From the NCBI RefSeq assembly GCF_044324785.1, contig NZ_CP172129.1: a stretch of DNA of 64,000 bases; one strand, 5' to 3'. Made by a program: the position numbers and the translations under genes. This DNA is from Escherichia coli. Lineage in GTDB: Bacteria > Pseudomonadota > Gammaproteobacteria > Enterobacterales > Enterobacteriaceae. Shown one piece after another: positions 16,095 through 32,669 of the stretch (its first letter is position 1; every line of letters begins with the position of its first letter). The notes below the pieces were generated by a model. It made no database searches. It was not told where the DNA came from and saw nothing but the letters and a program-made list of their open reading frames with translations.

Positions 16095-16705
16095 GTGAGA
16101 CTACGATTCCATTAATGCCTGCCAGTGAGTGTGTGGAACATATCTTGGCCAGTGGCTTGGTCTGTGATGTGCTGCGTATACCGGGTGAACCGCCCCGCCG
16201 CTTGTTTGACCGCTATATTCTGCGGGAGTTTTCTTGGAGGCACGGGATGAAATCCGCAGCATGGCGGATGCCCTGGCAAAAATCCGGAAATGATGACGAT
16301 GGCGGGGAAAATCCCCGCCTTTTTCCTGCCGGTCCCCGGACAGAGCACAAAGGAAGTCGCCGCCGGCTCCGCTTTACCCGGCCATGCGGAGCATGGCCTT
16401 GTGGGGGTTCAGTTATGTGGACGTCGAGTCGTGTGCGGGCTGTGCCGTGCCTCCATCTTAGCCGGGCTGGCGTTGATGCAAGCAACTGTCTTAATGGGAG
16501 GCGGTTATCTGAAAAAAGTACGGGATAATATTATGGAATCGCCCATCTCAAGCAAAAAACTGACTCGCTTCGATACTACGCTGACAGGCTGTTTTGAGCG
16601 AGATATCTCTCGTGTCGGGCATCGACATTTTAAATGATTCTAAATAATATGAGCAGGGTCAGTCTTATTAAAGATTAAAACACCGGATAACAAGTTTTAT
16701 TGATT

Positions 16706-17281
16706 ATGGATGAAGAGAAAACTCGTGCTGAAGTGGCACACATAGAATTTATTTCATATGGTACGTCTCGAATTTTTGATAGGCGTATGAGATCCTTAGA
16801 CTGGAAGCGTAAGGTTGTCACCTTCCTTGGGGTCTTTGTTCCACTGATGATAGGTTGTGCAGTTTTATCATTCGGACTTGAAGCTCCATTTCTGCCGCTT
16901 TGCATCACAATTGCCGGTGTGGCAAGTATCATGCAATTGGGGTTCTCGCTGTGGTCTTTGGTTTCCGGATGGGATCGCTCATATAGTGATTGCATGGCTT
17001 CCGTTAAGGAAAATACAGCCATTTATAACCTAGCTGGTAGTGTTCGCAAGAAAATAGGTAAGCTTGACGAAGCCAAATTGGAAATTTTGATAGACGATTT
17101 GACGGAAAAATTTGAGCGAAGGGAGCAGGAAGACTTAACTTTGTGTGTGAGTGATAAAGAACTTCGTTATGCAAACCGTATGTCCTGTTTCTACTTCAAA
17201 AAAAAATGCCATATTTGTAATGTCGTTCCCCTAACTTTGAAACCGGGAAAATGTGTTTGTGATGGTTGTGGGAAATTTTAA
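16706..17281 (+). CDS. Hypothetical membrane protein: two predicted TM helices, charged helical region, C-terminal Cys cluster (CxxC...CxCxxC)
   Basis: ORF 16700..17281; AT-rich island; hydrophobic stretches VVTFLGVFVPLMIGCAVLSFGL and LPLCITIAGVASIMQLGFSLWSLV; C-terminal KKKCHICNVVPLTLKPGKCVCDGCGKF; no recalled homolog. Confidence 0.5.
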   Translation: MDEEKTRAEVAHIEFISYGTSRIFDRRMRSLDWKRKVVTFLGVFVPLMIGCAVLSFGLEAPFLPLCITIAGVASIMQLGFSLWSLVSGWDRSYSDCMASVKENTAIYNLAGSVRKKIGKLDEAKLEILIDDLTEKFERREQEDLTLCVSDKELRYANRMSCFYFKKKCHICNVVPLTLKPGKCVCDGCGKF

Positions 17282-17293
17282 CAAGGAGAACAT

Positions 17294-17506
17294 ATGAGTA
17301 GTGCAAAAATTCTTAACGCTTACTTCGAGGCTTCTGAAGAAGATCGAAAGGAGTTCCTACGGGTTCTTAGTCATTTTTATAAGGATAACCGAAGAGTACC
17401 TCTGCAAGAGGGCATGGAGAGCTTTGCCGTCAATGAAAGCATCCGTAAATCGCAGTCAATTAACTTTGCCCCTATGCAAGGTGGGTGTCCACTCTGCGGC
17501 AAGTAA
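17294..17506 (+). CDS. Hypothetical small protein (70 aa) with C-terminal CPLCGK motif, likely co-transcribed with the upstream gene
   Basis: Strong Shine-Dalgarno AAGGAG 6-8 nt upstream of ATG at 17294; 12-bp gap after upstream gene; hairpin terminator follows. Confidence 0.5.
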   Translation: MSSAKILNAYFEASEEDRKEFLRVLSHFYKDNRRVPLQEGMESFAVNESIRKSQSINFAPMQGGCPLCGK

Positions 17507-17510
17507 CGAC

Positions 17511-17545
17511 CAAAGCCGCTTGACTAGCGGCTTGATAGATTTCTT
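17511..17545 (+). terminator. Putative intrinsic terminator after the two-gene cassette
   Basis: aagccgcttgactagcggctt hairpin followed by T-rich tract gatagatttctttatatt. Confidence 0.4.
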
Positions 17546-17559
17546 TATATTGTAACTAG

Positions 17560-19000
<1,441 letters not shown>

Positions 19001-19139
19001 ACCCTCCAACTCCCGCCAGCCGTGTGTGTCAGGCTGCGGCTTCCCTTGCGCCCTTTGCATCCCCGCCTTATCGCCCGGCTTTTATGGAGGCACGGCACAG
19101 CCCGGTGTCGCGGAATATGTGAACAACGGAGGAAATCCC

Positions 19140-19565
19140 ATGCAGTATGCGAAACCTGTCACTCTGAATGTTGAAGAGTGCGACCGTCTGTCTTTTCTGC
19201 CTTACCTGTTTGGCAACGATTTTCTGTATGCCGAAGCATATGTGTACGCGCTGGCGCAAAAAATGATGCCGGAATATCAGGGAGGCTTCTGGCACTTCAT
19301 CCGCCTGCCGGACGGTGGCGGTTACATGATGCCGGATGGCGACCGTTTTCATCTGGTTAACGGTGAAAACTGGTTTGACCGCACGGTCAGTGCCGATGCC
19401 GCAGGCATCATTCTGACTTCCCTTGTGATTAACCGCCAGTTGTGGCTGTACCACGACAGCGGTAACGCAGGGCTGACACACCTGTACCGGATGCGTGATG
19501 CGCAGTTGTGGAGCCACATCGAATTTCACCCCGAATGTAACGCGATTTACGCGGCGCTGGACTGA
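19140..19565 (+). CDS. klcA: Antirestriction protein KlcA/ArdB family
   Basis: 141-aa protein (start trimmed from ORF 18960..19565 to MQYAKPV behind GGAGGA); motifs [53 protein letters not shown] parallel RK2 KlcA. Confidence 0.8.
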
Positions 19566-19654
19566 TTAACGGACGGGGCGGCAATGCCGCCCCTGTAAAG
19601 GAGACGAGAACATGTACTGTTAAAGAAATTATCCGCGATGTACTGGATACAGAC

Positions 19655-20026
19655 GTGCCGGACAGTGAATGCGTTTTTGCCGTGGTGCTGACCCGTGGGA
19701 ATGTGCGCCATATGGCTCAGGACTGGAACCTGTCAGACGATGAGCTGGAAACCGTCATGCAGCGGCTGGACGATGCTTTTGTATATGGCGCATGTGACAG
19801 AGTTGTTTCCGATATTGTCAATGAACTGATGGAGGAAAAGCGCGTAAACCGCCTTGTAACAGTCCCTGCGGTGCTGCTGGAAAAAGTGATGGTGATGGCT
19901 GGTAGTGAAATTTATCGCCTCCATGCTGTCGGGAGCGAGAACGGGGGCGACGGTGACGCATTTGTCAGGGAAGAACGTGAGATTATGCGGGTGATGCGTC
20001 AGGCGCTGGACGGGGAGAACGGGTAA
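19655..20026 (+). CDS. Hypothetical leading-region protein (123 aa, acidic)
   Basis: ORF from track; position between klcA and first Frpo-like repeat; start codon uncertain (GTG, frame open upstream). Confidence 0.45.
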   Translation: MPDSECVFAVVLTRGNVRHMAQDWNLSDDELETVMQRLDDAFVYGACDRVVSDIVNELMEEKRVNRLVTVPAVLLEKVMVMAGSEIYRLHAVGSENGGDGDAFVREEREIMRVMRQALDGENG

Positions 20027-20208
20027 TGAATATCAGCACGGAAACCCGCGAAATTCTGCGTAATTACAAAACCGTGATTAATGCGCGGCGTCGTGAGATG
20101 GGGCAGAAACCGCTCACCACCGCGCAGATTGTTGATGAAATCTGCGATTTTGTGACGAATCAGCAGGCGGTTTTCCTCGGTGGTCACTATATCCTTCAGG
20201 GCAGCTGA
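20026..20208 (+). CDS. Hypothetical small leading-region protein (60 aa)
   Basis: ORF overlapping upstream stop (ATGA), suggests translational coupling. Confidence 0.4.
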   Translation: MNISTETREILRNYKTVINARRREMGQKPLTTAQIVDEICDFVTNQQAVFLGGHYILQGS

Positions 20209-20442
20209 AACAGGTGATACAGGGCAGGCGGTGGAGGCCGCCTGTCAGCCCGCGCGAACCCCCCTGGCAGGCTGACGCCTGCCGGAAGGGAAGCGGGCCA
20301 CGCTGACGCGTCGCCCGTTACCCTTCCCGTTAGTGATGTGTCCGGAATGTTTTTTCTGATGTTATTTTTCTGTGGTTACCGTGTTTGTTATTGTTCTTCT
20401 TCTTTTTCCTCTTCCTCTTCTTTCCGTTCCTCTCCTGTTTAT

Positions 20443-20970
20443 GGCTTTTCCGGGCGTCCCCCTGGCGGGGCGGGCTGTCGTGAACGGAGCCAGCGGAGCT
20501 GTCTCCGCCCTGGCGGGCTTCCATCCCTGACGCGAAACCATGGCTTGCAGCGACCGTTCCGGTCGCGCCGCCTCTGTCGCGCCGTGGCCTGCGCTCCCGG
20601 CATCCCGGCAAAAGGCGCCGGAATGTAAGGAGCAACGCCGTTTCGCAAACCGCGCTTCACGTCGTTGCGGCGGGTCCCTGCTCATTGCCTGCCAAGTGCC
20701 ACACACCCGTATGAGTCCCTGTCGCCGGGGGCTGAGACAGCCACAACCTGCCGCACTGACTGTCCAGGGTAAATGAACAGCCCACAAAATTTTTTACCCA
20801 GAACCCGGTAAAAAATTTTGCGTTCTGCCCAGGACAGGTGCGTCAGGCCGTGGCAGTGATGCCCCTTGCGGCGAAGGTTCTCAAACGGGTGAAGTTCATA
20901 CCACAGGGAATACAGCAGCAGGTTCCCGCGAAACGTCAAAACCGCGGCTCCCGAAACTCAACGGGTGATG
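20443..20970 (+). repeat. Frpo/ssi-like repeat copy 1 (putative single-stranded DNA promoter), preceded by CT-rich tract
   Basis: About 530 bp nearly identical to copies at 23700-24230 and 29091-29630; begins ccttttccgggcgtccccctggcggggcgggctgtcgtgaacggagccagcggagc. Confidence 0.6.
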
Positions 20971-21201
20971 TTCTTTAAAAATCAGGATTTATTTCAGGCT
21001 CCGGCAATACGCATTTATTTGTTCTGTCAGTCATCCGGCTGGCAGGTAATGAGAACGCAGGAACAGAAGGAGGAAAACACCGGAAAGCGTCAGATGCAGA
21101 TATGAAAAAAGCAGGTCAGGGACCTGCTTAATCCACGCCGTAGAAATCGCCGCAATCGATTTTCACGGCTTCACTAACCTGTGTCATAAGGAGTTTCATT
21201 T

Positions 21202-21432
21202 ATGACAGTAAGTATTGTTTCACCTTCCGCAGCGGCTGTAAAGCCCCGCCGTCATCCCCGTTTCAGACGCGAAGACATCCCCGCGCCGGAAATTGACCCC
21301 GTGCTGAAAGCATTCGGGCGACACATAGCCCGGAGTTTTCACCGGGGACGTGGTGTACACATCCCCGCCATGAAAAACACGGCTTTCGGGCAGGTGCTCC
21401 GCACACTTGAACTGAAACGCGCTTTTAACTGA
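21202..21432 (+). CDS. Hypothetical small basic protein (76 aa), first gene downstream of Frpo-like copy 1
   Basis: ORF with AAGGAG-like SD (cataaggagtttcatttATG). Confidence 0.5.
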   Translation: MTVSIVSPSAAAVKPRRHPRFRREDIPAPEIDPVLKAFGRHIARSFHRGRGVHIPAMKNTAFGQVLRTLELKRAFN

Positions 21433-21483
21433 TGAGGTGAGCCGCCCCGCGAGGGGCGGCAACAGACGGAAGGAGAACATTTT

Positions 21484-22845
21484 ATGACATTAGCAGCAAT
21501 CACCATGACCGCCCCAGAAGCCGCCAGCCCTGTGCAGATGTACCGCGCGACCTACTCACCGGATGACAACAAACTGCGCCTGTATGCTGCGTCACGTCTT
21601 GACCCGGAGACGTATAAAAAAGTGCATGATGCCGGTTTTCGCTGGGCACCAAAACAGGCGCTGTTTGTGGCTCCAGCCTGGACACCGGGCCGGGAAGACG
21701 TGCTCCTCTCACTTGCCGGAGAGATTGAGGATGAAGACAGCACGCTCGCTGAACGTCAGGAAGCACGGGCGGAGCGGTTTACCGGATACAGCGGAAAGCG
21801 GGCCAGTGAATCCGCACAGGCACTTGATGAAGTGGAAAGACTGGCCGCGATGATCCCGCCCGGTCAGCCCATTCTTGTGGGGCATCACAGCGAACGCCGC
21901 GCCCGTCGTGATGCGCAGCGTATTGAAAACGGCATGAAACGTGCCGTGATGCTCGTTGAACGTGCGGAATACTGGGAAGAGCGGGCGCGGTCGGCACTGC
22001 TTCACGCGAAGTATAAAGAACGTCCGGACGTTCGCTGGCGTCGTATCAAAAAAATCGAAGCTGATTTGCGCAAGGCTGAAAAGACCATCGCGCAGTCGCA
22101 GAAATATCTGACGATATGGCGGGCTGAATCGCTGGATCTGAATATGGCAAAACTCATCAGTAGTCATGACCGTATCAGTGCCTGTTTCCCGCTGGATACG
22201 TATCCGCGCCCGGCAGAAAAAAGCCAGTATGAAGGAAGTCGATCGTTATGGTCGGCCCTGGATGATGACATCATCACCACGGAGCAGGCCCGCGAAATTG
22301 CGATCCGCTGTCATAAACGGCAGATTCAGCATCAGCAACGCTGGGTTAACCACTATCAGAACCGCCTGATCTATGAGCGTGCCATGCTGGACGAAAGCGG
22401 CGGCGTGGTTACCCGGACACAGGATTTTGAGCCGGGCGGACAGGTTTTCAGCCGGGGCGAGTGGCTGACCATCATCCGCGTGAACAAAAGCAACGGGACG
22501 GTGAGTTCAGTCACAACGCCGAATTACAGTTTTCTCGGGTACAGTGGCACGATGAAAGTGACGCCCGATCGCATTACGGACTACAAAGCACCATCGGCAG
22601 AAGAGGCTGCCGTCGCCAGTCAGGCCGCTAAGCGTCCGCCTGTTGTCAACTATCCGGGAGAAGGTTTCCGGGAAATGACAAAGGCACAGTGGGCTGCCCT
22701 GCCCCGGGACTGTAAGGCCGTGCGCAGTGTGGCAGAGGCAGAAGACCACGGGGCATATCGTTACCGCCGCACAATGGACAATAATTTCCGCCTGGTGAAT
22801 GTGTATATCACCGACATGAAGATTACGGAAATCCCACAGAAATAA
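21484..22845 (+). CDS. Conserved leading-region protein (453 aa), possibly DUF3560-like
   Basis: ORF from track with SD ggaaggagaacattttATG; family name is from memory and unverified. Confidence 0.55.
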   Translation: MTLAAITMTAPEAASPVQMYRATYSPDDNKLRLYAASRLDPETYKKVHDAGFRWAPKQALFVAPAWTPGREDVLLSLAGEIEDEDSTLAERQEARAERFTGYSGKRASESAQALDEVERLAAMIPPGQPILVGHHSERRARRDAQRIENGMKRAVMLVERAEYWEERARSALLHAKYKERPDVRWRRIKKIEADLRKAEKTIAQSQKYLTIWRAESLDLNMAKLISSHDRISACFPLDTYPRPAEKSQYEGSRSLWSALDDDIITTEQAREIAIRCHKRQIQHQQRWVNHYQNRLIYERAMLDESGGVVTRTQDFEPGGQVFSRGEWLTIIRVNKSNGTVSSVTTPNYSFLGYSGTMKVTPDRITDYKAPSAEEAAVASQAAKRPPVVNYPGEGFREMTKAQWAALPRDCKAVRSVAEAEDHGAYRYRRTMDNNFRLVNVYITDMKITEIPQK

Positions 22846-22892
22846 GGTATATCCTCCCGGGAAAATCCCCGGGGGATGACGGAGATAATGAC

Positions 22893-23456
22893 ATGTACAG
22901 TCAGTTAAGAGAACGTATCCGGCTGATGCGCGCAAGGCTGGATAACGCCGCGCCGGTTGCTGAAATCCGGGCTGAATCTCAGCTTTTTGTGACTCCTGCC
23001 CCGGTCTGTGATCGCCTGGTGACGCTGGCGGGGATCAGCAACCGTGATCACATTCTGGAACCCTCTGCCGGCACCGGGGCCATACTGCGGGCGATTAGGG
23101 ATACCGCGCCGGTAGCCATGTGTGATGCGGTGGAAATCAACAGCGGGCTGGTCCGGTATCTGCGGGAAAATTTTAACGGTGTCAGGGTTCAGTGTGGCGA
23201 CTTCATGGAATGGCAGCCGGTGCAGTATTACAGCCGGGTTATCATGAATCCGCCGTTCAGCCACGGGCAGGATATCCGGCATATCCTGCGGGCCTTTTCC
23301 CTGTTGCGTCCGGGTGGCGTGCTGGTCGCCGTCTGTCTCAACGGGCCACGCCAGCAGGAGAAGCTGTTACCGTTTTCTGACGTCCGCGAGGAGCTGCCGC
23401 GCGGCACATTTGCTTATACCGATGTCCCGACGATGATTATTCGTCTGCGTGCCTGA
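22893..23456 (+). CDS. Orphan DNA adenine-N6 methyltransferase
   Basis: SAM-binding motif I EPSAGTGAIL and catalytic motif IV NPPF present; no adjacent restriction endonuclease gene. Confidence 0.7.
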   Translation: MYSQLRERIRLMRARLDNAAPVAEIRAESQLFVTPAPVCDRLVTLAGISNRDHILEPSAGTGAILRAIRDTAPVAMCDAVEINSGLVRYLRENFNGVRVQCGDFMEWQPVQYYSRVIMNPPFSHGQDIRHILRAFSLLRPGGVLVAVCLNGPRQQEKLLPFSDVREELPRGTFAYTDVPTMIIRLRA

Positions 23457-23699
23457 AGACTCCGGGCAGGCGGGAGGATAAATGCTCGTCTGCCCGCGCC
23501 GGGAAAAGACCGCGCGCCGGTGGCGCTGAAAGGGGCCGCGCTCACGCGCCGCCCCTTTCATTACGCGGAAATTCTGCTGTGGGCTTCTGTCTTTTCAGAT
23601 CTGTCATTTGTCTGTTACTGATGATGTTCCTGCTACTGCTACTGTTTTTCTTTTTTCTGCTGCTCTGATTACTGTCTGTCTTGTTCTTCTTCTGCCTGT

Positions 23700-24230
23700 G
23701 CCTTTTCCGGGCGTCCCCCTGGCGGGGCGGGCTGTCGTGAACGGAGCCAGCGGAGCTGTCTCCGCCCTGGCGGGCTTCCATCCCTGACGCAAAACCCCTG
23801 GCTTGCAGCGACTGTTCCGGTCGCGCGCCTCTGTCGCGCCGTGGCCTGCGCTCCTGGCATCCCGGCAAAAGGCCGCCGGGATGTAAGGCGCAACGCCGTT
23901 TCGCAAACCGCGCTTCACGTCGTTGCGGCGGGTCCCTGCCCGTTGTTATGTCCGGTGCCATTCACCTGTTTAAGCCCCTGTCGCCGGGGGCAAAGACAGC
24001 CACAACCGTCTCCGCCAGTCCAGGGGTGAAATGCACATCCCGCAAAACTTTTTGCCCAAAAGCAGGCAAAAACTTTTGCGGTCTGCCCCCGGACAGTCGT
24101 TTCCTGCCGTGGCAGTGATGCCCCTTGCGGCGAAGGTTTTCAAAAAGGTGATGGTGAATACCGGAGGGAACAAAAGGCAGGTCCCCGCAAAACGTCAAAA
24201 CCGCGGCTCCCGAAACTCAAAAGATGATGG
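23700..24230 (+). repeat. Frpo/ssi-like repeat copy 2 (putative single-stranded DNA promoter), preceded by CT-rich tract
   Basis: Same 5' ~300 bp as copies 1 and 3, divergent central segment; directly upstream of ssb. Confidence 0.6.
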
Positions 24231-24261
24231 GGCTGAAAACATCAACAGAAGGAGACACATC

Positions 24262-25090
<829 letters not shown>

Positions 25091-25153
25091 GAGAGGTGCC
25101 GGACGGGAATGCGTCCGGCAGACATACAACCATCCCGGTCAAAGGAGAAATAT

Positions 25154-27112
25154 ATGTCGGTTACAGAGTCTAAGACAAAAACGGAGCGTAAATCCAGCCG
25201 TAAACCGTCAAAAGAGCAGGAGACTGCCCTGTCTGCCCTGCTGGCGCAGACGGCGGAAGTGAGCGTGCCGCTGGCCTCACTGATTAAATCACCACTGAAT
25301 GTGCGCACGGTGCCGTATTCTGCGGAGTCTGTCAGCGAACTGGCGGAGTCCATTAAGGGCGTTGGCCTGTTGCAGAATCTGGTCGTGCATACCCTGCCTG
25401 GTGACCGTTACGGTGTCGCCGCAGGTGGTCGCCGACTGGCTGCACTCAACATGCTGGCAGAGCGTGGCATCATTCCGGCTGACTGGCCTGTCCGTGTGAA
25501 GGTCATTCCGCAGGAGCTGGCGACGGCGGCATCAATGACTGAAAACGGTCATCGTCGGGATATGCACCCTGCTGAACAGATTGCCGGATTCCGCGCAATG
25601 GCGCAGGAAGGCAAAACACCTGCACAAATCGGTGATTTGCTGGGCTATTCACCCCGCTATGTCCAGCGAATGCTGAAACTGGCTGACCTTGCGCCTGTCA
25701 TCCTCGATGCGCTGGCAGAAGACCGCATCACTACCGAACACTGTCAGGCGCTGGCGCTGGAGAACGACACCGCGCGTCAGGTACAGGTGTTTGAAGCCGC
25801 CTGTCAGTCGGGATGGGGCGGAAAACCGGATGTGCGGGTTATCCGCAATCTGATTACGGAAAGTGAAGTGGCGGTGGCGGGGAACAGTAAATTCCGCTTC
25901 GTGGGGGCTGATGCTTTCTCACCTGACGAACTGCGTACTGATTTGTTCAGCGATGACGGGGACGGTTATGTCGACCGCGTGGCGCTCGATGCTGCCCTGC
26001 TGGAAAAACTCCAGGCTGTCGCTGAACACCTTCGGGAAGCCGAAGGCTGGGAATGGTGCGCCGGACGCATGGAGCCTGTCGGTGAGTGCCGTGAGGATGC
26101 CGGAACATACCGCTGTTTGCCGGAGCCGGACGCGGTGCTGACGGAGGCGGAAGAAGAACGCCTGAACGAACTGATGACGCGTTACGACGCGCTGGAAAAC
26201 CAGTGTGAGGAATCCGACCTGCTGGAAGCAGAAATGAAGCTGATGCGCTGCATGGCGAAGGTCAGAGCGTGGACGCCGGAGATGCGTACCGGAAGCGGTG
26301 TGGTGGTGTCCTGGCGTTACGGTAATGTGTGTGTCCAGCGTGGTGTGCAGTTGCGCAGCGAGGATGACGCGGCTGACGACGCTGACCGCACGGAACAGGT
26401 GCAGGAGAAAGCATCAGTGGAGGAAATCAGTCTGCCACTGCTGACGAAAATGTCTTCCGAACGCACGCTGGCAGTCCAGGCGGCACTCATGCAGCAACCG
26501 GACAAATCCCTGGCACTGCTGGCATGGACGCTCTGCCTGAATGTGTTTGGCAGCGGAGCGTACAGTAAACCAGCACAAATCAGCCTGGAATGTAAACATT
26601 ATTCGCTGACCAGCGATGCGCCGTCAGGGAAGGAAGGTGCCGCGTTCATGGCGATGATGGCAGAAAAAGCCCGTCTTGCGGCCCTGTTACCGGAGGGATG
26701 GTCACGGGACATGACGACGTTCCTGTCACTCAGTCAGGAGGTGCTGTTATCCCTGCTCAGTTTCTGCACCGCGTGCAGCATCCACGGCGTTCAGACCCGC
26801 GAGTGTGGTCACACGTCACGCAGCCCGCTGGACACGCTGGAGAGCGCCATCGGTTTTCACATGCGTGACTGGTGGCAGCCGACAAAAGCAAACTTCTTCG
26901 GACACCTGAAAAAGCCGCAGATTATCGCAGCTCTGAATGATGCCGGACTGTCCGGTGCCGCACGGGATGCAGAGAAGATGAAGAAAGGTGATGCGGCTGA
27001 ACATGCAGAGCACCATATGAAAGACAACCGCTGGGTGCCTGGCTGGATGTGTGCACCACATCCACAGACGGATACCACTGAACGCACCGATAACCTGGCT
27101 GATGCCGCCTGA
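25154..27112 (+). CDS. ParB-like nuclease domain protein of the leading region
   Basis: ORF 25109..27112, start set at MSVTESK behind AAAGGAG; N-terminal ParB/Srx-like region (GLLQNLVVHTLPGDRYGVAAGGRRLAALNML). Confidence 0.65.
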   Translation: MSVTESKTKTERKSSRKPSKEQETALSALLAQTAEVSVPLASLIKSPLNVRTVPYSAESVSELAESIKGVGLLQNLVVHTLPGDRYGVAAGGRRLAALNMLAERGIIPADWPVRVKVIPQELATAASMTENGHRRDMHPAEQIAGFRAMAQEGKTPAQIGDLLGYSPRYVQRMLKLADLAPVILDALAEDRITTEHCQALALENDTARQVQVFEAACQSGWGGKPDVRVIRNLITESEVAVAGNSKFRFVGADAFSPDELRTDLFSDDGDGYVDRVALDAALLEKLQAVAEHLREAEGWEWCAGRMEPVGECREDAGTYRCLPEPDAVLTEAEEERLNELMTRYDALENQCEESDLLEAEMKLMRCMAKVRAWTPEMRTGSGVVVSWRYGNVCVQRGVQLRSEDDAADDADRTEQVQEKASVEEISLPLLTKMSSERTLAVQAALMQQPDKSLALLAWTLCLNVFGSGAYSKPAQISLECKHYSLTSDAPSGKEGAAFMAMMAEKARLAALLPEGWSRDMTTFLSLSQEVLLSLLSFCTACSIHGVQTRECGHTSRSPLDTLESAIGFHMRDWWQPTKANFFGHLKKPQIIAALNDAGLSGAARDAEKMKKGDAAEHAEHHMKDNRWVPGWMCAPHPQTDTTERTDNLADAA

Positions 27113-27163
27113 TGAACAACCACACCGCCCCGCCGGAGACGGGGCAGCAGCAAGGGAGATACC

Positions 27164-27601
27164 GTGATGAAAACTGAACTGACCCTGAATGTATTACAGA
27201 CCATGAACGCACAGGAATATGAAGATATCAGGGCTGCCGGAAGTGATGAACGCCGTGAGCTGACACACGCCGTGATGCGGGAACTGGATGCGCCGGACAA
27301 CTGGACGATGAATGGCGAGTACGGCAGCGAGTTCGGCGGCTTTTTCCCCGTCCAGGTCCGTTTCACGCCTGCCCACGAACGTTTTCACCTGGCGTTATGT
27401 TCACCGGGTGATGTCTCCCAGGTCTGGGTGCTGGTTCTGGTGAATGCCGGTGGTGAGCCGTTTGCGGTGGTTCAGGTACAGCGGCGGTTTGCACCGGAAG
27501 CAGTCAGCCATTCACTGGCACTGGCGGCGTCACTGGATGCGCAGGGGTACAGCGTTAACGACATCATCCATATCCTGATGGCGGAAGGAGGTCAGGTATG
27601 A
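27164..27601 (+). CDS. psiB: Plasmid SOS inhibition protein PsiB
   Basis: [53 protein letters not shown]... recalled as PsiB; followed by overlapping psiA. Confidence 0.85.
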
Positions 27602-28317
27602 ACGCACGTTCACGGGCACTGGTTCCCCTCAGCACAGAGCAACAGGCCGCATGGCGGGCGGTGGCGGAGACGGAAAAACGCCGCCATCAGGGAAACACGC
27701 TGGCGGAATATCCGTATGCGGGAGCATTTTTCCGCTGTCTGAACGGAAGCCGCCGGATTTCGCTGTCTGACCTGCGATTTTTCATGCCGTCCCTGACCGC
27801 AGAAGAACTGCACGGCAACCGTCTTCAGTGGCTGTGTGCCATCGATGTGCTGATTGAAACACAGGGCGAGGTCTGCCTCCTTCCCCTTCCCGGCGATGCA
27901 GCAGAACGCTTGTTCCCGTCGGTGCGGTTTCGTGTCAGGGAACGCAGTCGCCATAAATCCGCGCTGGTCATGCAGAAGTACAGCCGCCAGCAAGCGAGGG
28001 AGGCAGAGCAGAAAGCCCGTGCGTACCAGGTGCTGGTTGCTCAGGCTGAAATCGAACTGGCATTTCATTCACCGGAAACAGTCGGAAGCTGGCATGCACG
28101 CTGGAGTGACCGGGTGGCAGAGCATGACCTGGAACCCCTGTTCTGGCAGTGGGGCGAGCGTTTTCCGTCACTGGCCGGAATGGAACGCTGGCAGTGGCAG
28201 GATATGCCATTCTGGCAGGTTATCGCGGAAGCCAGTCTGGCAGCCAGAGAGGCCGGTCATGCTGTCCGTGAGATGGAGCGGTGGATGGTGCCGAACAAAC
28301 TCCGGGAGGCAGCGTGA
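27598..28317 (+). CDS. psiA: Plasmid SOS inhibition protein PsiA
   Basis: 239-aa ORF overlapping psiB stop (ATGA), canonical psiB-psiA arrangement. Confidence 0.85.
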
Positions 28318-28469
28318 TGCGGCAATAATCACACGGATTACCCGTGAACTGGTTGAACGACCAGATTATTTTCAGGGAAAGTGAGTGTGGTCAGCGTGCA
28401 GGGATATGAGCTATGATGTGCCCGGCGCTTGAGGCTTTCTGCCTCATGACGTGAAGGTGGTTTGTTACC

Positions 28470-28545
28470 GTGTTGTGTGGCAGAAGGCAGAAAGCCCCGT
28501 AGTTAATTTTTCATTAACCCACGAGGCCCCCTGTATGTCTGATCA
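28470..28545 (-). ncRNA. sok: Sok/FlmB antisense RNA (position approximate)
   Basis: Inferred from the conserved hok/sok architecture (antisense to the mok leader); not directly delimited in sequence. Confidence 0.3.
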
Positions 28546-28750
28546 ACAACAGTATGGCCTCTTACCGTGCTTAATGCAAGGAGGAGTAAACCATGAAACT
28601 ACCGGGAAACGCCCTTATCTGGTGCGTATTAATCGTGTGCTGCACGTTGTTAATATTCACACTCCTGACCCGGAATCGTCTGTGCGAAGTCCGGCTGAAG
28701 GACGGATACAGGGAGGTTACGGCAAGTTTGGCTTACGAATCCAGCGGTAA
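28535..28750 (+). CDS. mok: Mok/FlmC (modulation of killing) reading frame overlapping hok
   Basis: ORF 28451..28750 overlaps hok in a different frame and ends 4 nt before the hok stop; start set at internal MSDQQQ. Confidence 0.5.
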
Positions 28751-28754
28751 GTAG
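28593..28754 (+). CDS. hok: Hok/FlmA family post-segregational killing toxin (53 aa)
   Basis: Translates [55 protein letters not shown] aaggagg upstream. Confidence 0.85.
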
Positions 28755-29090
28755 CAACCTGGAGGCGGGCGCAGGCCCGCCTTTTCAGGGCTGATGCTGG
28801 TCTGACTGCACTGAAGCGCCTTTATAAAGGGGCTGCTGGTTCGCCGGTGGCCCCTTTCTCCTTGCTGGCATTGTGCGGGCATGAACAACCAGACTGCCAG
28901 GAAGGCCGTTTCCCTCCGGGAACGGGGATGAACGTGCGCCTGCGGCGCCCGTTCTTTTCCCCCGCCTTCTCTGTTTATGACCTGTCAGAAATCACATCAC
29001 CTTCCCTTTGATTATTCTCTTTTTCCTCCTGTTCTGACTCTGATTACTGCTGCCCTGATTATTGTCTGTTTTGTTGTTCTCCTGCTTATG

Positions 29091-29630
29091 CCTTTTCCGG
29101 GCGTCCCCCTGGCGGGGCGGGCTGTCGTGAACGGAGCCAGCGGAGCTGTCTCCGCCCTGGCGGGCTTCCATCCCTGACGCGAAACCCCGGGCTTGCAGCG
29201 ACCGTTCCGGTCGCGCCGCCTCTGTCGCGCCGTGGCCTGCGCTCCCGGCATCCCGGCAAAAGGCCGCCGGGATGTAAGGGGCAACGCCGTTTCGCAAACC
29301 GCGCTTCACGTCGTTGCGGCGGGTTCCTGCCCGTTGTTGTGTCCGGTGCCATTCACCTGTTTAAGCCCCTGTCGCCGGGAGCTGATACAGCCACAACCTG
29401 CCGCACTGACTGTCCAGGGTAAATGAACAGCCCACAAAATTTTTTACCCAAAACCCGGTAAAAAATTTTGCGTTCTGCCCAGGACAGGTGCGTCAGGCCG
29501 TGGCAGTGATGCCCCTTGCGGCGAAGGTTCTCAAACAGGTGATGGTGAATACCGGAGGGAACAAACGGCAGGTCCCCGCAAAACGTCAAAACCGCGGCTC
29601 CCGAAACTCAACAGATGATGGGGGCTGAAA
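29091..29630 (+). repeat. Frpo/ssi-like repeat copy 3 (putative single-stranded DNA promoter), preceded by CT-rich tract
   Basis: Near-identical to copy 1 over its full length; directly upstream of ORF 29653. Confidence 0.6.
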
Positions 29631-29652
29631 ACCAGAGAGAGGAGAAAGCAGG

Positions 29653-29940
29653 ATGAGTACCCGAAATATCCACGTTAACATCGCGTCGTACACGCTTCTT
29701 GTTGCCGGGAAGAAAAAATACACCGGGGAAGAGTGGGACGTCCTGGAATTCAGCAGCCTGACTGAGCTGAAAAAATATCGCAAAAGCCACCCGGAAAAGA
29801 TGGCCTTCAGCTATAGCTATGCGCTCAGCCGGGGTGTGGATACGCAGTTCCGCCATATCAACATTGCGGAAGCCGATCACTTCAAACAGTTCCTGCGTCA
29901 GATTAAGCGTACCGGCCTCGATATCCGGGCTATCTGCTGA
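29653..29940 (+). CDS. Hypothetical leading-region protein (95 aa)
   Basis: ORF from track immediately downstream of Frpo-like copy 3. Confidence 0.5.
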   Translation: MSTRNIHVNIASYTLLVAGKKKYTGEEWDVLEFSSLTELKKYRKSHPEKMAFSYSYALSRGVDTQFRHINIAEADHFKQFLRQIKRTGLDIRAIC

Positions 29941-30058
29941 CCGGATGTGATGAATATCCCTCCTGATTGTTGCAATCTTGTTAATGGAGATCGGGAGGGA
30001 TGATATTAAGCGGAAAAATTTTTTATTAAATTTATTCTTTCATAAAGGAGTAGCTGTT

Positions 30059-30880
30059 ATGCGATTAGCTTCCCGTTTTGGTCGGTATAATTCCATCCGC
30101 CGTGAACGTCCTTTAACGGATGATGAATTAATGCAGTTTGTGCCTTCGGTGTTTTCCGGTGATAAACATGAGTCCCGGAGTGAACGTTATACGTATATTC
30201 CAACAATCAATATCATCAATAAGTTACGTGATGAAGGTTTCCAGCCATTCTTTGCCTGTCAGAGTCGGGTTCGTGATTTGGGACGTCGCGAATACAGTAA
30301 ACATATGTTACGTCTTCGCAGGGAAGGGCATATTAACGGGCAGGAAGTTCCTGAAATTATCCTGCTTAATTCACATGATGGTTCATCCAGTTATCAGATG
30401 ATCCCCGGAATTTTTCGTTTTGTCTGCACAAATGGCCTGGTGTGCGGAAATAATTTTGGCGAAATCCGCGTTCCACATAAAGGTGATATTGTCGGGCAGG
30501 TTATCGAGGGAGCGTATGAAGTGCTCGGTGTCTTTGATAAGGTCACTGATAATATGGAGGCGATGAAAGAAATTCATCTTAACAGTGACGAGCAACATTT
30601 ATTTGGCAGAGCTGCACTGATGGTCAGGTATGAAGATGAAAATAAAACGCCGGTGACGCCTGAACAGATAATTACTCCCCGTCGTCGGGAGGATAAACAG
30701 AACGATCTCTGGACAACCTGGCAGCGGGTTCAGGAGAATATGATAAAAGGTGGATTATCGGGGCGAAGTGCCTCCGGGAAAAATACCAGGACAAGAGCCA
30801 TTACAGGTATTGATGGTGATATAAGAATCAACAAAGCATTATGGATGATTGCCGAACAGTTCAGGGAGTGGAAGTCGTGA
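30059..30880 (+). CDS. Conserved leading-region protein, possibly DUF932 family
   Basis: ORF 29978..30880, start set at MRLASRFGRYNS behind aaaggag; strong terminator follows; family name from memory, unverified. Confidence 0.5.
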   Translation: MRLASRFGRYNSIRRERPLTDDELMQFVPSVFSGDKHESRSERYTYIPTINIINKLRDEGFQPFFACQSRVRDLGRREYSKHMLRLRREGHINGQEVPEIILLNSHDGSSSYQMIPGIFRFVCTNGLVCGNNFGEIRVPHKGDIVGQVIEGAYEVLGVFDKVTDNMEAMKEIHLNSDEQHLFGRAALMVRYEDENKTPVTPEQIITPRRREDKQNDLWTTWQRVQENMIKGGLSGRSASGKNTRTRAITGIDGDIRINKALWMIAEQFREWKS

Positions 30881-31175: not shown

Positions 31176-31685
31176 TTAATTGTTCTGCACACTGTTCATT
31201 TGGGAAAGTGATTTCTTCGTGGTCGGAACCCGGATACCTTTACTGCTTTTTATCCCGGTATAAATCCGGTAAACATCTGATGCGTAGGCAAGACGCCTCT
31301 GGTTCTGGCGTTCGGTTTTCCTGAATCCGGCATTGTATGCACCAACGGCCTCCCAGGTGACGCCCCATTTTTTAAATGCTATTGCCAGATAATAAGCACC
31401 GGTATAAATGTTCATGCAGGGATCTGTTGTCATATGTTCCGGCTTAATTCCGTAGCGGGCCAGTTCGTTAAAATGCTGGGAATCTACCTGCATCAGTCCG
31501 CTGCCATATCCCGTTACCGGATTAATACCGATGGCATTAACCCGGTAACGGGATTCTTGCCATGATATTGCTCTCAGTAAATCAGGATCTATTTTGTAAT
31601 CCCTGCCTGCAAGATCAAAGCAATCAGTGGCCAGACAGATCTCATTTATAAACATCAGGCAGATGGCTAACATCCATTTTTTCAT
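31176..31685 (-). CDS. Lytic transglycosylase (F orf169/gene X homolog)
   Basis: 169-aa secreted protein with SLT-domain motifs (ISWQESRY ... GLMQV ... AYNAG); located next to oriT as in F. Confidence 0.8.
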
Positions 31686-31699
31686 TTTTCCACCTCTGG

Positions 31700-32099
31700 T
31701 GACTTTATCCGTAAATAATTTAACTCACTCCACAAAAAGGCTCAACAGGTTGGTGGTTCTCACCACCAAAAGCACCACACCCCACGCAAAAACAAGTTTT
31801 TGCTGATTTTTCTTTATAAATAGAGTGTTATGAAAAATTAGTTTCTCTTACTCTCTTTATGATATTTAAAAAAGCGGTGTCGGCGCGGCTACAACAACGC
31901 GCCGACACCGTTTTGTAGGGGTGGTACTGACTATTTTTATAAAAAACATTATTTTATATTAGGGGGGGCTGCTAGCGGCGCGGTGTGTTTTTTTATAGGA
32001 TACCGCTAGGGGCGCTGCTAGCGGTGCGTCCCTGTTTGCATTATGAATTTTAGTGTTTCGAAATTAACTTTATTTTATGTTCAAAAAAGGTAATCTCTA
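31700..32099. other. oriT: Origin of transfer oriT with nic region and TraM binding sites
   Basis: caccacaccccacgcaaaaacaag is the complement of the F-type nic sequence GCGTGGGGTGTGGTG (nick near 31776 on minus strand); downstream palindromes gcggtgtcggcgcgg...ccgacaccg and ataccgctaggggcgctgctagcggtgcg resemble R100-type TraM sites. Confidence 0.75.
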
Positions 32100-32483
32100 A
32101 TGGCTAAGGTGAACCTGTATATCAGCAATGATGCCTATGAAAAAATAAATGCGATTATTGAGAAGCGTCGACAGGAAGGGGCAAGGGAAAAAGATGTCAG
32201 TTTTTCAGCAACAGCTTCAATGCTTCTTGAACTGGGGCTTCGTGTACATGAGGCTCAGATGGAGCGTAAAGAGTCTGCATTTAATCAGACTGAGTTTAAT
32301 AAATTGCTTCTTGAATGCGTTGTAAAAACACAATCATCAGTAGCGAAAATTTTGGGTATTGAGTCTCTCAGTCCTCATGTCTCCGGAAATCCAAAGTTTG
32401 AATATGCCAATATGGTTGAAGATATCAGGGAGAAGGTATCATCTGAGATGGAACGATTTTTTCCAAAAAATGATGATGAATAA
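32100..32483 (+). CDS. traM: Relaxosome accessory protein TraM
   Basis: 127-aa ORF MAKVNLYISNDAYEKINAIIEKRRQEGAREKDVSFSATASMLLELGLRV... Confidence 0.9.
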   Translation: MAKVNLYISNDAYEKINAIIEKRRQEGAREKDVSFSATASMLLELGLRVHEAQMERKESAFNQTEFNKLLLECVVKTQSSVAKILGIESLSPHVSGNPKFEYANMVEDIREKVSSEMERFFPKNDDE

Positions 32484-32589
32484 AAGAAATTTGACTTCGT
32501 TCAAATATCAGAGTTTTTATGATTTAAAAAGGTGACAGTACGAAAGATAATTAGTATATTAATTACGTGGTTAATGCCACGTTAAAATT

Positions 32590-32668
32590 TGAAATTGAAA
32601 ATCGCCGATGCAGGGAGACGTGAACTCCCTGCATCGACTGTCCATAGAATCCTTTGTGAGGAGGTTCC
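32590..32668 (-). ncRNA. finP: FinP antisense RNA (position approximate)
   Basis: Stem-loop cgatgcaggga-gacgtgaac-tccctgcatcg and a second hairpin covering the traJ SD lie in the traJ leader; FinP is antisense to this region in F-like plasmids. Confidence 0.45.
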
Positions 32669-32669
32669 T

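What the first reader, a model, noticed from the sequence alone, without database searches (positions are those of the whole stretch)
19655..30880. Leading region as a probable anti-defence island with several uncharacterised genes
Between klcA and oriT, known establishment genes (klcA, orphan methyltransferase, ssb, psiB-psiA, hok/mok/sok) are interspersed with genes I cannot assign: 19655-20026, 20026-20208, 21202-21432, 21484-22845, 24857-25090, ParB-like 25154-27112, 29653-29940 and 30059-30880. Leading regions are enriched in anti-restriction, anti-CRISPR and anti-SOS functions, so these are plausible anti-defence candidates.
Basis: inference. Interest (0 to 1): 0.55.

Follow-up and report, generated by a model that had tools for sequence, protein, structure and literature searches.

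The report
F-like plasmid leading region, already catalogued
This stretch is the well-known "leading region" of an F-type conjugative resistance plasmid, the first DNA to enter a new host; its unnamed genes are real, but all belong to catalogued families, and one is reported to reprogram the host rather than block its defences.

Summary
All eight ORFs exist at the stated coordinates, are conserved, and are annotated in identical plasmids. One exception: 19655-20026 is the remnant of a DUF1380 gene whose start was destroyed by a 5-bp deletion.

The region is the canonical leading region of an IncF (MOBF) plasmid, and 19655-30880 is 100% identical to many E. coli plasmids. Every gene lies on the + strand, so the transferred (-) strand is the template. 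Three ~550-nt hairpins homologous to F Frpo1/Frpo2 each head an operon.

The "unassignable" ORFs are known families:
- DUF1380/YcgB
- a 60-aa ORF
- orf76 (pHK01_035, covered by the antisense RNA AS-pc01)
- DUF3560/YdbA
- DUF905/YfjA
- YfjB = HerB
- YgeA (ORF95)
- YgeB (DUF932/ORF273)

The anti-defence-island idea is the published thesis of Samuel et al. (Nature 2024), whose table lists at least five of these families by name. It is only partly supported here. HerB is reported as a host-transcription reprogrammer. YgeA matters even in isogenic matings. No unassigned ORF matched a defence-system model, and no anti-defence library was available.

New minor points: this lineage carries a split klcA single-strand promoter and an SSB without its C-terminal tip, and DUF3560 is tightly syntenic with a methyltransferase that lacks a recognition domain.

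Verdict: already known, low interest.

The parts
16442..16481 (-). Distal arm of the class-2 single-strand DNA promoter hairpin (F ssp2) that normally sits just upstream of klcA
   Evidence: Matches the distal arm in F with 2 mismatches. Collinear with F up to about 16481.
16482..18905 (.). A ~2.4-kb insertion that splits the ssp2 hairpin. It carries a CxxCx11CxxC 'mobilome' protein (16700-17281, +), a 70-aa ORF (17294-17506, +) and an IS110-family ISEc32 transposase (17767-18738, -).
   Evidence: The junction is present in 334 of 4888 plasmid records.
18913..19139 (-). Proximal part of the ssp2 hairpin and the klcA leader
   Evidence: Homology with F resumes here. Alone it folds no better than shuffled sequence, z +1.8. 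Joining the two arms in silico restores a long hairpin, -91.7 kcal/mol, z -4.6. The F version gives -111 kcal/mol, z -6.6.
19140..19565 (+). klcA (F yfgB), a KlcA/ArdB-family anti-restriction protein
   Evidence: 2KMG KlcA E 5e-18 and 2WJ9 ArdB E 2e-8. PHROG anti-restriction family E 2e-20. 97% identical to F.
19612..20026 (+). DUF1380 (YcgB-family) gene with a 5-bp deletion directly after ATG-TAC. The protein is acidic (pI 4.45).
   Evidence: The deletion allele is in 325 of the 5000 best-matching plasmid records.
20026..20208 (+). Conserved 60-aa ORF with no family assignment
   Evidence: 97% identical to F, with 9 synonymous versus 2 non-synonymous codon differences. Found in at least 5000 plasmids. 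No hit in NCBIfam, PHROGs, PADLOC or Pfam.
20330..20985 (-). Frpo/ssi class-1 single-strand DNA promoter homologue, copy A, upstream of orf76-DUF3560-methyltransferase
   Evidence: Direct repeats. Aligns with F Frpo1 and Frpo2. The T-strand folds at -152.7 kcal/mol, z -8.4.
21106..21207 (-). AS-pc01 antisense RNA (Rfam RF02875), complementary to the ribosome-binding site and start codon of orf76, ending in an intrinsic terminator
   Evidence: 105 bits against a gathering score of 79. A promoter-like site lies at 21242-21214 and a terminator at 21129-21109. Conserved at the same position in Entomohabitans and Citrobacter loci.
21202..21432 (+). orf76 (pHK01_035 homologue), a very basic 76-aa protein (pI 11.9) with a weak HU-like signal
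   Evidence: Found in at least 5000 plasmids and down to 68% identity in other genera. 25 synonymous versus 11 non-synonymous codon differences. Pfam HU-CCDC81 E 0.029, and one record carries that name.
21484..22845 (+). DUF3560 protein (YdbA family), 453 aa. It has an N-terminal alpha/beta domain, a long helical hairpin (the DUF3560 domain, residues 89-206), a helical middle domain, a small beta-barrel and a C-terminal domain.
22893..23456 (+). Orphan 187-aa N6-adenine-type methyltransferase (FVTP, LEPSAGTGA, NPPF at 119-122) with no target-recognition domain
   Evidence: Only the M.TaqI catalytic domain aligns. Unrelated to F's methylase. Lies directly downstream of DUF3560 in all 15 related loci where the sequence downstream of DUF3560 could be examined, interrupted in one of them.
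23590..24244 (-). Frpo class-1 single-strand DNA promoter homologue, copy B (the F Frpo2 position), upstream of ssb-yfjA-herB-psiB-psiA
   Evidence: Folds at -145.8 kcal/mol, z -7.2.
24262..24894 (+). Plasmid ssb with a 1-bp deletion after 24790. The C-terminal DDIPF tip is replaced by an out-of-frame tail.
   Evidence: The allele is in 116 of 998 matching plasmid records.
24857..25090 (+). yfjA (YubL), a DUF905/UPF0401 protein
   Evidence: Pfam E 1e-30. Solved relative is E. coli YkfF, 2HJJ, E 2.5e-18. 99% identical to F. Zygotically induced in F.
25154..27112 (+). yfjB = herB, a ParB-like CTP-binding host-expression reprogrammer
   Evidence: 94% identical to F over all 652 aa. The ParB N-terminal and HTH region matches Spo0J, Noc and ParB structures. 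Residues R94, E130, R168, R172 and K175, named in PMC13370423, are all present (read).
27167..28317 (+). psiB (27167-27601) and psiA (27598-28317), SOS inhibition genes
28423..28754 (+). hok/mok/sok (flm-type) type I toxin-antitoxin locus
   Evidence: Rfam sok, 92.7 bits. Hok coding sequence.
28980..29635 (-). Frpo class-1 single-strand DNA promoter homologue, copy C (the F Frpo1 position), upstream of ygeA-ygeB
   Evidence: Folds at -158 kcal/mol, z -9.0.
29653..29940 (+). ygeA (ORF95), a basic 95-aa protein restricted to plasmids of Enterobacterales
   Evidence: 97% identical to F. Only 142 protein clusters and no Pfam family.
30059..30880 (+). ygeB (YubP, ORF273), a DUF932 protein
   Evidence: Pfam E 3e-52. 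5589 cluster representatives. AlphaFold2 pLDDT 94.8. No informative structural relative. Invariant residues H82, C123, N125, H140, E226 and G231.
31176..31685 (-). ygfA (orf169), a lytic transglycosylase and the only gene here on the opposite strand
31769..31785 (-). oriT nick-site sequence GTGGGGTGT/GGTGCTTT. It identifies the - strand as the transferred strand.
   Evidence: Exact match, none expected by chance.

Best explanation
Window 19.1-31.8 kb is the canonical leading region of an F-like (IncFIA/FIB, MOBF, MPF_F) conjugative plasmid.

How it works. Transfer starts at the nick in oriT (31769-31785, - strand). The - strand enters the recipient 5' first, so ygeB, ygeA, hok, psiA, psiB, herB, yfjA, ssb, the methyltransferase, DUF3560, orf76, orf60, DUF1380 and klcA arrive in that order. 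All of these genes are on the + strand, so the incoming single strand is their template. Three ~550-nt T-strand hairpins homologous to F Frpo1/Frpo2 act as promoters that work only on single-stranded DNA. They drive three operons for a few minutes until complementary-strand synthesis turns them off (zygotic induction).

A fourth operon (klcA-DUF1380-orf60) normally uses a different hairpin promoter (ssp2). In this plasmid lineage that hairpin is split by a 2.4-kb insertion, and the DUF1380 gene is frameshifted.

What the operons encode. The products are a mixture:
- Counter-defence: KlcA against type I restriction, an orphan adenine methyltransferase, and PsiB with SSB against SOS induction.
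- Stabilisation: hok/sok.
- Host manipulation: HerB.
- Families still without a function: DUF1380, orf60, orf76, DUF3560, DUF905, YgeA and YgeB/DUF932.

Shown here: the anatomy, the homologies, the hairpins, strand and orientation, and the lesions. Taken from the literature on F and pESBL: zygotic expression, promoter activity, and the HerB, KlcA and PsiB functions. Inferred: that the same holds for this plasmid.
For: - 100% identity over 11.2 kb to many IncF plasmids, and synteny with F.
- Nick sequence on the - strand. All genes are on the + strand.
- Three repeat copies align with F Frpo1 and Frpo2 at 87% mean column identity. Their T-strands fold with z-scores of -9.0, -8.4 and -7.2.
[quoted passage not shown] Six single-strand-promoter operons in pESBL, including a class-2 promoter upstream of klcA, are reported in PMC12672017.
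- HerB orthology and function.
- KlcA, DUF905, DUF932 and DUF3560 family matches.
- Leading-region family ranks in Samuel et al..
Against: - Nothing here measures expression. Promoter activity of copy A, which has no equivalent at that position in F, is inferred from homology and fold alone.
- The split ssp2, the frameshifted DUF1380 and the tip-less SSB show that part of the module may not work in this plasmid as it does in F.
- Seven families still have no demonstrated function, so 'mixture' is partly a statement of ignorance.
Confidence: 0.9

Rival explanations
1. One reading: most or all of the eight unassigned ORFs are dedicated anti-defence proteins (anti-restriction, anti-CRISPR, anti-SOS and similar).
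For: - They sit among klcA, an orphan methyltransferase and psiB, in the region shown statistically to be enriched for anti-defence genes.
- DUF1380 is small and acidic (pI 4.45), like many DNA-mimic inhibitors.
- Samuel et al. tag DUF932 as 'anti-restriction', on a single structural match to P1 Hdf among 4661 family members.
- In F, loss of the promoter of the klcA operon lowers transfer into defended hosts 21-fold or more.
Against: - HerB is reported to act on host transcription, and its deletion did not change the transconjugant frequency in the matings tested.
- The ygeA deletion phenotype appears in standard K-12 matings, which I read as isogenic.
- This lineage has lost intact DUF1380 yet is widespread.
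Confidence: 0.1
2. The DUF3560 protein and the 187-aa methyltransferase form one functional module. DUF3560 would supply the DNA (probably single-stranded DNA) binding or loading that the recognition-domain-less methyltransferase lacks. The incoming strand would then be adenine-methylated before restriction enzymes see duplex DNA. orf76 and the antisense RNA AS-pc01 would be accessory or regulatory.
For: - The methyltransferase lies directly downstream of DUF3560 in all 15 related loci where the sequence downstream of DUF3560 could be examined, interrupted in one. The loci span Escherichia to Pantoea and Erwinia, down to 61% and 49% identity.
- The methyltransferase has DNA N6A motifs but aligns only with the catalytic domain of M.TaqI, and at 187 aa has no room for a recognition domain.
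- The same methyltransferase domain occurs inside giant multi-domain phage and plasmid proteins.
- Samuel et al. annotate the DUF3560 family through a structural match to a 'methyltransferase domain protein'.
- The pair has its own Frpo copy.
- Single-strand-specific leading-region methyltransferases are precedented by M.EcoGIX.
Against: - There is no direct evidence of interaction.
- Synteny within one order may reflect shared ancestry of the whole leading region, because neighbouring genes are also conserved.
- Non-specific methyltransferases such as M.EcoGII need no partner.
- The DUF3560 model has only moderate confidence and no recognisable DNA-binding fold.
Confidence: 0.3
3. YgeA and YgeB are a mutually dependent pair (regulator with effector, or antidote with toxin-like protein). 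They would act in an early DNA-processing or establishment step common to all recipients, not against a specific defence system.
For: - In F, deleting ygeA gives 3.9% transconjugants, whereas deleting Frpo1 together with ygeAB gives 33%. ygeB alone could not be deleted.
- The two genes form the first operon to enter the recipient, behind Frpo copy C.
- YgeB has a confident globular model, an invariant H/C/N/H/E set and several near-invariant arginines, which suggests an enzyme or nucleic-acid binder.
- DUF932 is very widespread (5589 representatives), while YgeA is confined to Enterobacterales plasmids. That pattern fits a lineage-specific modulator.
Against: - The genetics comes from one paper, without complementation data that I saw.
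- No toxin, antitoxin or enzyme fold was recognised.
- Whether the invariant residues cluster in space could not be tested with the tools available.
Confidence: 0.3
4. Some of the small ORFs (orf60, orf76, ygeA) are not genes but chance ORFs in structured intergenic DNA.
For: They are short and match no Pfam or NCBIfam family.
Against: - Conserved in thousands of plasmids and across genera, with an excess of synonymous changes for orf60 and orf76. ygeA differs from F at only 2 synonymous and 3 non-synonymous codons, so its support comes from the points below.
- A YgeA-sfGFP fusion is produced in F transconjugants.
- orf76 has its own Shine-Dalgarno sequence and a dedicated antisense RNA.
Confidence: 0.03

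Closest known systems
Leading region of plasmid F (NC_002483, about 56.7-66.2 kb): yfgB/klcA, DUF1380, ssb, yfjA, yfjB/herB, psiB, psiA, flm, ygeA, ygeB, ygfA, with Frpo1, Frpo2 and ssp2
   Same: Same gene order and orientation. Proteins are 82-99% identical. Frpo copies B and C correspond to Frpo2 and Frpo1. Same nick sequence.
   Different: - The window has an extra Frpo copy plus orf76-DUF3560-methyltransferase between orf60 and ssb, which F lacks at that position.
- Its methyltransferase is unrelated to F's M.EcoGIX-like methylase.
- The ssp2 hairpin is split by a 2.4-kb insertion, DUF1380 is frameshifted, and SSB lacks its tip.
IncI1 leading regions (ColIb-P9, R64, pESBL) with ssi1-3 and class 2/3 single-strand promoters
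   Same: Operons driven by single-strand promoters that encode ssb, a ParB-like YfhA, psiB-psiA, klcA or ardA, a methyltransferase and DUF905 (ykfF).
   Different: - A different plasmid backbone (MOBP, IncI).
- ardA and M.EcoGIX are present there and absent here.
- Loss of yfhA increased transfer in one host strain, which shows that effects depend on context.
Anti-defence islands of leading regions (Samuel et al., Nature 2024)
   Same: Position next to oriT, strand bias, Frpo promoters, and a mixture of anti-restriction, methyltransferase, SSB, PsiB, toxin-antitoxin and uncharacterised families. At least five of the unassigned families are named in their top-100 table.
   Different: No anti-CRISPR or ArdA is detectable here. 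At least one 'uncharacterised' member (ParB-like/HerB) now has a reported function that is not anti-defence.
CP4-57 / CP4-6-type chromosomal islands of E. coli K-12 (YfjQ/YafZ = DUF932, YkfF = DUF905, YfjX/YafX = ArdB-like)
   Same: The same trio of families travels together. The solved YkfF structure (2HJJ) is the closest structural relative of YfjA. YafZ-like names occur in the DUF932 family of Samuel et al..
   Different: Those are integrated elements, not plasmids. Gene order and neighbours (GTPase, RadC, CbtA/CbeA) differ. This comparison rests on my own knowledge and was not tested here.

Membership tests
F-like plasmid leading region with zygotic (single-strand promoter) operons | Lies immediately on the first-transferred side of the oriT nick | tested here: met
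   Nick sequence at 31769-31785 on the - strand, so the region 31.7 to 19.1 kb follows it 5' to 3' on that strand.
F-like plasmid leading region with zygotic (single-strand promoter) operons | Genes are co-oriented so that the transferred strand is the template | tested here: met
   All 14 protein genes from klcA to ygeB are on the + strand. Only ygfA and the antisense RNA AS-pc01 are on the - strand.
F-like plasmid leading region with zygotic (single-strand promoter) operons | Frpo/ssi-type long hairpins on the T-strand upstream of operons | tested here: met
   Three copies homologous to F Frpo1 and Frpo2, with z-scores of -7.2 to -9.0 against shuffled sequence.
F-like plasmid leading region with zygotic (single-strand promoter) operons | Early, transient expression in transconjugants only | not testable with these tools
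   Shown for the F and pESBL homologues in the literature.
Anti-defence island (Samuel et al. 2024) | [quoted passage not shown] | tested here: met
   klcA, orphan N6A methyltransferase and psiB/psiA.
Anti-defence island (Samuel et al. 2024) | The unassigned neighbours themselves inhibit defence systems | tested here: inconclusive
   No sequence or fold similarity to a known anti-defence protein. HerB has a reported function that is not anti-defence. No dedicated anti-defence library was available, and the question needs experiments.
HerB (YfjB) family of ParB-like host reprogrammers | All four domains D1-D4 are covered | tested here: met
   94% identity to F YfjB over residues 1-652 in one ungapped stretch.
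HerB (YfjB) family of ParB-like host reprogrammers | CTP-binding Box II arginine (R94), Mg/hydrolysis E130, and HTH residues R168, R172 and K175 | tested here: met
   Read directly from the translation: GGRRLAA at 91-97, MTENG at 128-132, and R168, R172, K175. Compared.
HerB (YfjB) family of ParB-like host reprogrammers | Chromosome binding and transcriptional reprogramming | not testable with these tools
   Preprint data for the F protein only.
KlcA/ArdB anti-restriction proteins | Full-length sequence similarity to characterised KlcA or ArdB | tested here: met
   2KMG E 5e-18 over residues 5-141, and 2WJ9 E 2e-8.
KlcA/ArdB anti-restriction proteins | Expressed from its single-strand promoter (ssp2) on entry | tested here: not met
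   A 2.4-kb insertion separates the hairpin arms. Whether pairing across the insertion still works is unknown.
Gamma-class N6-adenine DNA methyltransferase | Motif X (FxTP), motif I (xEPxxGxG) and motif IV (NPPF/Y), in that order | tested here: met
   FVTP at 32-35, LEPSAGTGA at 55-63 and NPPF at 119-122 (sequence). Aligned to M.TaqI residues 22-122.
Gamma-class N6-adenine DNA methyltransferase | A target-recognition domain | tested here: not met
   The protein ends at residue 187. Nothing aligns with the C-terminal domain of M.TaqI.
Bacterial SSB | Acidic C-terminal tip (DDIPF) for partner recruitment | tested here: not met
   A 1-bp deletion relative to F changes ...SDDIPF-stop into ...SDDTRSERL... 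plus 37 residues.
Pfam DUF932 / DUF3560 / DUF905 | A significant match to the family model | tested here: met
   E 2.8e-52, 1e-36 and 1.4e-30 respectively.
Pfam DUF1380 | A significant match to the family model | tested here: not met
   The Pfam scan listed no DUF1380 match at any E-value. The name comes from NCBI annotation of identical plasmids and from 82% identity to F's DUF1380 protein.
hok/sok type I toxin-antitoxin | Sok RNA and a Hok ORF | tested here: met
   Rfam RF01794, 92.7 bits. Hok/Gef coding sequence.

The most novel reading that the evidence does not exclude
The DUF3560 protein (YdbA) may be the obligatory DNA-loading or targeting partner of a methyltransferase that has no recognition domain. 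Together they would form a two-protein module, zygotically expressed and gated by an antisense RNA, that methylates the incoming single strand. This would be a second, mechanistically distinct route to pre-emptive methylation alongside M.EcoGIX.

A related point: about 330 plasmids have lost the klcA promoter hairpin and DUF1380 but keep this module. That suggests the two anti-restriction routes can substitute for each other.
Probability: 0.2. Interest if true: 0.5.

Novelty: already known. Interest (0 to 1): 0.2.

Why it matters
IncF plasmids carry a large share of acquired resistance genes in E. coli, and the minutes after DNA entry are a bottleneck for their spread.

The genes flagged here are the ones the field already lists as the main unknowns of that step.

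Three points could be useful to a specialist:
1. Natural variants exist in which the klcA single-strand promoter is split, DUF1380 is frameshifted and SSB has lost its interaction tip. These are ready-made 'mutants' in successful clinical plasmids.
2. The strict DUF3560-methyltransferase synteny, together with the absence of a recognition domain in the methyltransferase, gives a testable function for one orphan family.
3. HerB shows that 'leading region' does not automatically mean 'anti-defence'.

Tried and rejected
- **PADLOC, NCBIfam and PHROGs on all ten proteins.** No model of a known defence system matched any unassigned ORF, and no anti-defence library was available. PHROG matches were to families of unknown function.
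- **Sequence search of solved structures.** Nothing was found for DUF3560, YgeB, YgeA, orf60, orf76 or DUF1380. The only real hit was YkfF (2HJJ) for DUF905. The other hits to my concatenated query were artefacts of the Gly-Ser linkers.
- **Possible DUF905-like domain inside the DUF3560 protein.** A PHROG match at E 0.0034 suggested this. Profile comparison rejected it, with probability 0.5%.
- **Methyltransferase as a homologue of F's M.EcoGIX-like methylase.** Rejected: BLASTP found no significant similarity.
- **Is orf76 always linked to DUF3560?** No. It was not detected in the Cedecea, Hafnia, Buttiauxella, Mixta, Pantoea and Erwinia loci. In the one Pantoea locus whose ORFs I listed, no separate small ORF precedes DUF3560.
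- **Polyvalent-protein paper (PMC5512222).** It does not mention any of these DUF families.
- **Distant full-length relatives of the DUF3560 protein for a deeper alignment.** The genome scan returned only Enterobacterales at 61% identity or more.

Full report
**What is there**

The interval 19655-30880 is 100% identical over its whole length to many E. coli IncF plasmids, for example pDB4277 (IncFIA/FIB, MOBF, MPF_F). More than 1000 plasmid records cover at least 80% of it. PGAP annotation of those records and comparison with plasmid F give the gene map below. Everything is on the + strand unless marked.

| Feature | Coordinates |
|---|---|
| klcA | 19140-19565 |
| DUF1380 | 19612-20026 |
| 60-aa ORF | 20026-20208 |
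| repeat A | ~20330-20985 |
| orf76 | 21202-21432 |
| DUF3560 | 21484-22845 |
| methyltransferase | 22893-23456 |
| repeat B | ~23590-24244 |
| ssb | 24262-24894 |
| yfjA (DUF905) | 24857-25090 |
| yfjB (ParB-like) | 25154-27112 |
| psiB, psiA | 27167-28317 |
| hok/sok | 28423-28754 |
| repeat C | ~28980-29635 |
| ygeA | 29653-29940 |
| ygeB (DUF932) | 30059-30880 |
| ygfA transglycosylase (- strand) | 31176-31685 |
| oriT, then traM | traM at 32100 |

The F nick sequence GTGGGGTGT/GGTGCTTT occurs once, at 31769-31785 on the - strand. The - strand is therefore the transferred strand. The region enters the recipient from ygeB towards klcA, and the incoming strand is the template for every gene in it.

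**Check of the observation**

The eight ORFs are real, and seven have exactly the annotated ends. The short ones are coding:
- orf76 and the 60-aa ORF each occur in at least 5000 plasmid records.
- They persist in other genera at 54-86% identity.
- They show more synonymous than non-synonymous codon changes: 25 versus 11, and 9 versus 2.

Two corrections are needed. First, the ORF 19655-20026 is the remnant of the DUF1380 gene. F reads ATG TAC TGT ACT GTT. The window lacks one TGTAC unit and reads ATG TAC TGT TAA. This allele is in 325 of the 5000 best-matching plasmid records. Second, the 'known' ssb has lost one base after 24790. The C-terminal ...DDIPF tip is replaced by an out-of-frame tail that runs into yfjA. 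That allele is in 116 of 998 records.

**The promoters**

The three ~650-bp direct repeats align with F Frpo1 and Frpo2 at 87% mean column identity. Their - strands fold into hairpins of several hundred nucleotides, at -146 to -158 kcal/mol and z = -7.2 to -9.0 against shuffled sequence. [quoted passage not shown] The window has a third copy, which heads orf76-DUF3560-methyltransferase. F lacks that block at this position.

Upstream of klcA, F has a different 240-nt hairpin (-111 kcal/mol, z -6.6). This is the class-2 promoter described in PMC12672017 and called ssp2 in a 2026 preprint. In the window only its proximal arm adjoins klcA. The distal arm lies at 16442-16481. Between the two arms sits a 2.4-kb insertion with an IS110-family transposase and two other ORFs. 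The klcA-proximal sequence alone folds no better than chance (z +1.8). Joining the arms in silico restores the hairpin (-91.7 kcal/mol, z -4.6). The junction is present in 334 of 4888 records. In F, deleting ssp2 lowers transfer into non-isogenic strains from 21-fold to undetectable. The anti-restriction arm of this plasmid's island may therefore be impaired. This last step is inference.

**The 'unassigned' ORFs**

- **ParB-like ORF.** It is 94% identical to F YfjB over all 652 residues. It keeps R94, E130, R168, R172 and K175. A July 2026 preprint renames YfjB as HerB. It describes a zygotically induced, CTP-binding dimer that binds the host chromosome at about 156 sites, changes about 870 transcripts and lowers the acquisition cost. 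It has no effect on short-term transfer frequency (PMC13370423). In IncI plasmids, loss of the homologue YfhA raised transfer in one host strain.
- **yfjA.** DUF905, E 1e-30. Its relative E. coli YkfF has a solved structure, 2HJJ, without a known function.
- **ygeA.** It has no family and is confined to Enterobacterales plasmids, in 142 clusters. In F, deleting ygeA drops conjugation to 3.9%, while deleting Frpo1 with ygeAB gives 33%. ygeB could not be deleted alone.
- **DUF3560 protein.** It gave a moderate model (pLDDT 74.8), dominated by a long helical hairpin. Fold hits were only generic.
- **orf76.** Very basic (pI 11.9), with a marginal HU-like signal. Its ribosome-binding site and start codon are covered by a known antisense RNA, AS-pc01 (Rfam RF02875, 105 bits). 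The RNA is conserved at the same position in two other genera.
- **DUF1380.** Acidic (pI 4.45), with no other clue.

**The methyltransferase module**

The 187-aa methyltransferase has the FxTP, LEPSAGTGA and NPPF motifs of DNA N6-adenine enzymes. It aligns only with the catalytic domain of M.TaqI, so it has no recognition domain. It is unrelated to F's M.EcoGIX-like methylase. In related loci from eleven genera, from Escherichia to Pantoea and Erwinia, it always lies directly downstream of DUF3560. That held in all 15 loci where the sequence downstream of DUF3560 could be examined; in one of them the gene is interrupted. Identity falls as low as 61% for DUF3560 and 49% for the methyltransferase. 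Samuel et al. annotate the DUF3560 family through a structural match to a 'methyltransferase domain protein'. I therefore propose, as inference only, that DUF3560 is the DNA-handling partner of this enzyme.

**Comparison with what is known, and verdict**

They describe leading regions as anti-defence islands in which a third of the top families are uncharacterised and 'probably anti-defence related'. Their Supplementary Table 1 ranks DUF905 second, DUF932/YgeB third, ParB fifth, DUF1380 seventh and DUF3560 twenty-eighth. The finding is therefore correct as a description but already known.

As an explanation it is only partly supported. Recognised counter-defence genes are present (klcA, the methyltransferase, psiB). 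HerB shows that at least one neighbour serves host reprogramming instead. The YgeA/YgeB genetics points to a general establishment role. Nothing I could compute assigns an anti-defence function to the rest.

The lineage-specific lesions and the DUF3560-methyltransferase linkage are the only additions. They are modest.

Noticed in passing
window 16442-19139: The hairpin of the class-2 single-strand DNA promoter upstream of klcA (F ssp2) is split by a ~2.4-kb insertion at 16482-18905. The insertion carries an IS110-family ISEc32 transposase, a CxxCx11CxxC 'mobilome' protein and a 70-aa ORF. Removing it in silico restores the hairpin. The junction is found in 334 of 4888 plasmid records.
   Followed up: yes
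window 19612-19623: A 5-bp deletion (one unit of a TGTAC tandem repeat) sits directly after the start of the DUF1380 gene and gives ATG TAC TGT TAA. NCBI annotation of identical plasmids instead calls a 153-aa protein from position 19565, where the codon is ATT. The allele is in 325 of the 5000 best-matching records.
   Followed up: yes
window 24790-24894: The plasmid ssb has a 1-bp deletion that removes the conserved C-terminal DDIPF tip and extends the ORF 37 residues into yfjA. The allele is present in 116 of 998 matching plasmid records. The tip-less SSB might still coat single-stranded DNA but fail to recruit host partners.
   Followed up: partly
window 21106-21207 (- strand): The Rfam antisense RNA AS-pc01 covers the Shine-Dalgarno sequence and start codon of orf76. 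The sense strand can also form an 8-bp hairpin (TGTCATAA...TTATGACA) around the same site. This suggests that leaky expression of the orf76-DUF3560-methyltransferase operon is repressed in established cells.
   Followed up: partly
window 21484-23456; loci L003, L005-L018: DUF3560 and the 187-aa methyltransferase without a recognition domain are adjacent in every related locus where the sequence downstream of DUF3560 could be examined, across eleven genera. In one Pantoea locus (L017) the methyltransferase is interrupted by about 1.3 kb.
   Followed up: partly
window 20362-20787, 23542-23961, 29086-29352 (- strand): Long ORFs on the - strand lie inside each Frpo repeat. One (23542-23949) is annotated as a hypothetical protein in RefSeq records. 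They coincide with the structured promoter DNA and are probably not genes.
   Followed up: no
window 30059-30880: In the YgeB/DUF932 alignment of 110 sequences at 37-49% identity, H82, C123, N125, H140, E226 and G231 are invariant and several arginines are nearly so. This suggests a metal or catalytic site. The spatial arrangement could not be checked.
   Followed up: partly
window 32565-32676: The traJ 5' UTR and the FinP antisense RNA are detected just beyond traM, as expected for an F-like fertility-inhibition system.
   Followed up: no
L015 3420-4000 (Pantoea agglomerans plasmid): The G+C-rich sequence directly upstream of the DUF3560 homologue folds significantly better than shuffled sequence on the template strand (z -4.4). 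It may be a divergent single-strand promoter. No orf76 homologue is present there.
   Followed up: partly
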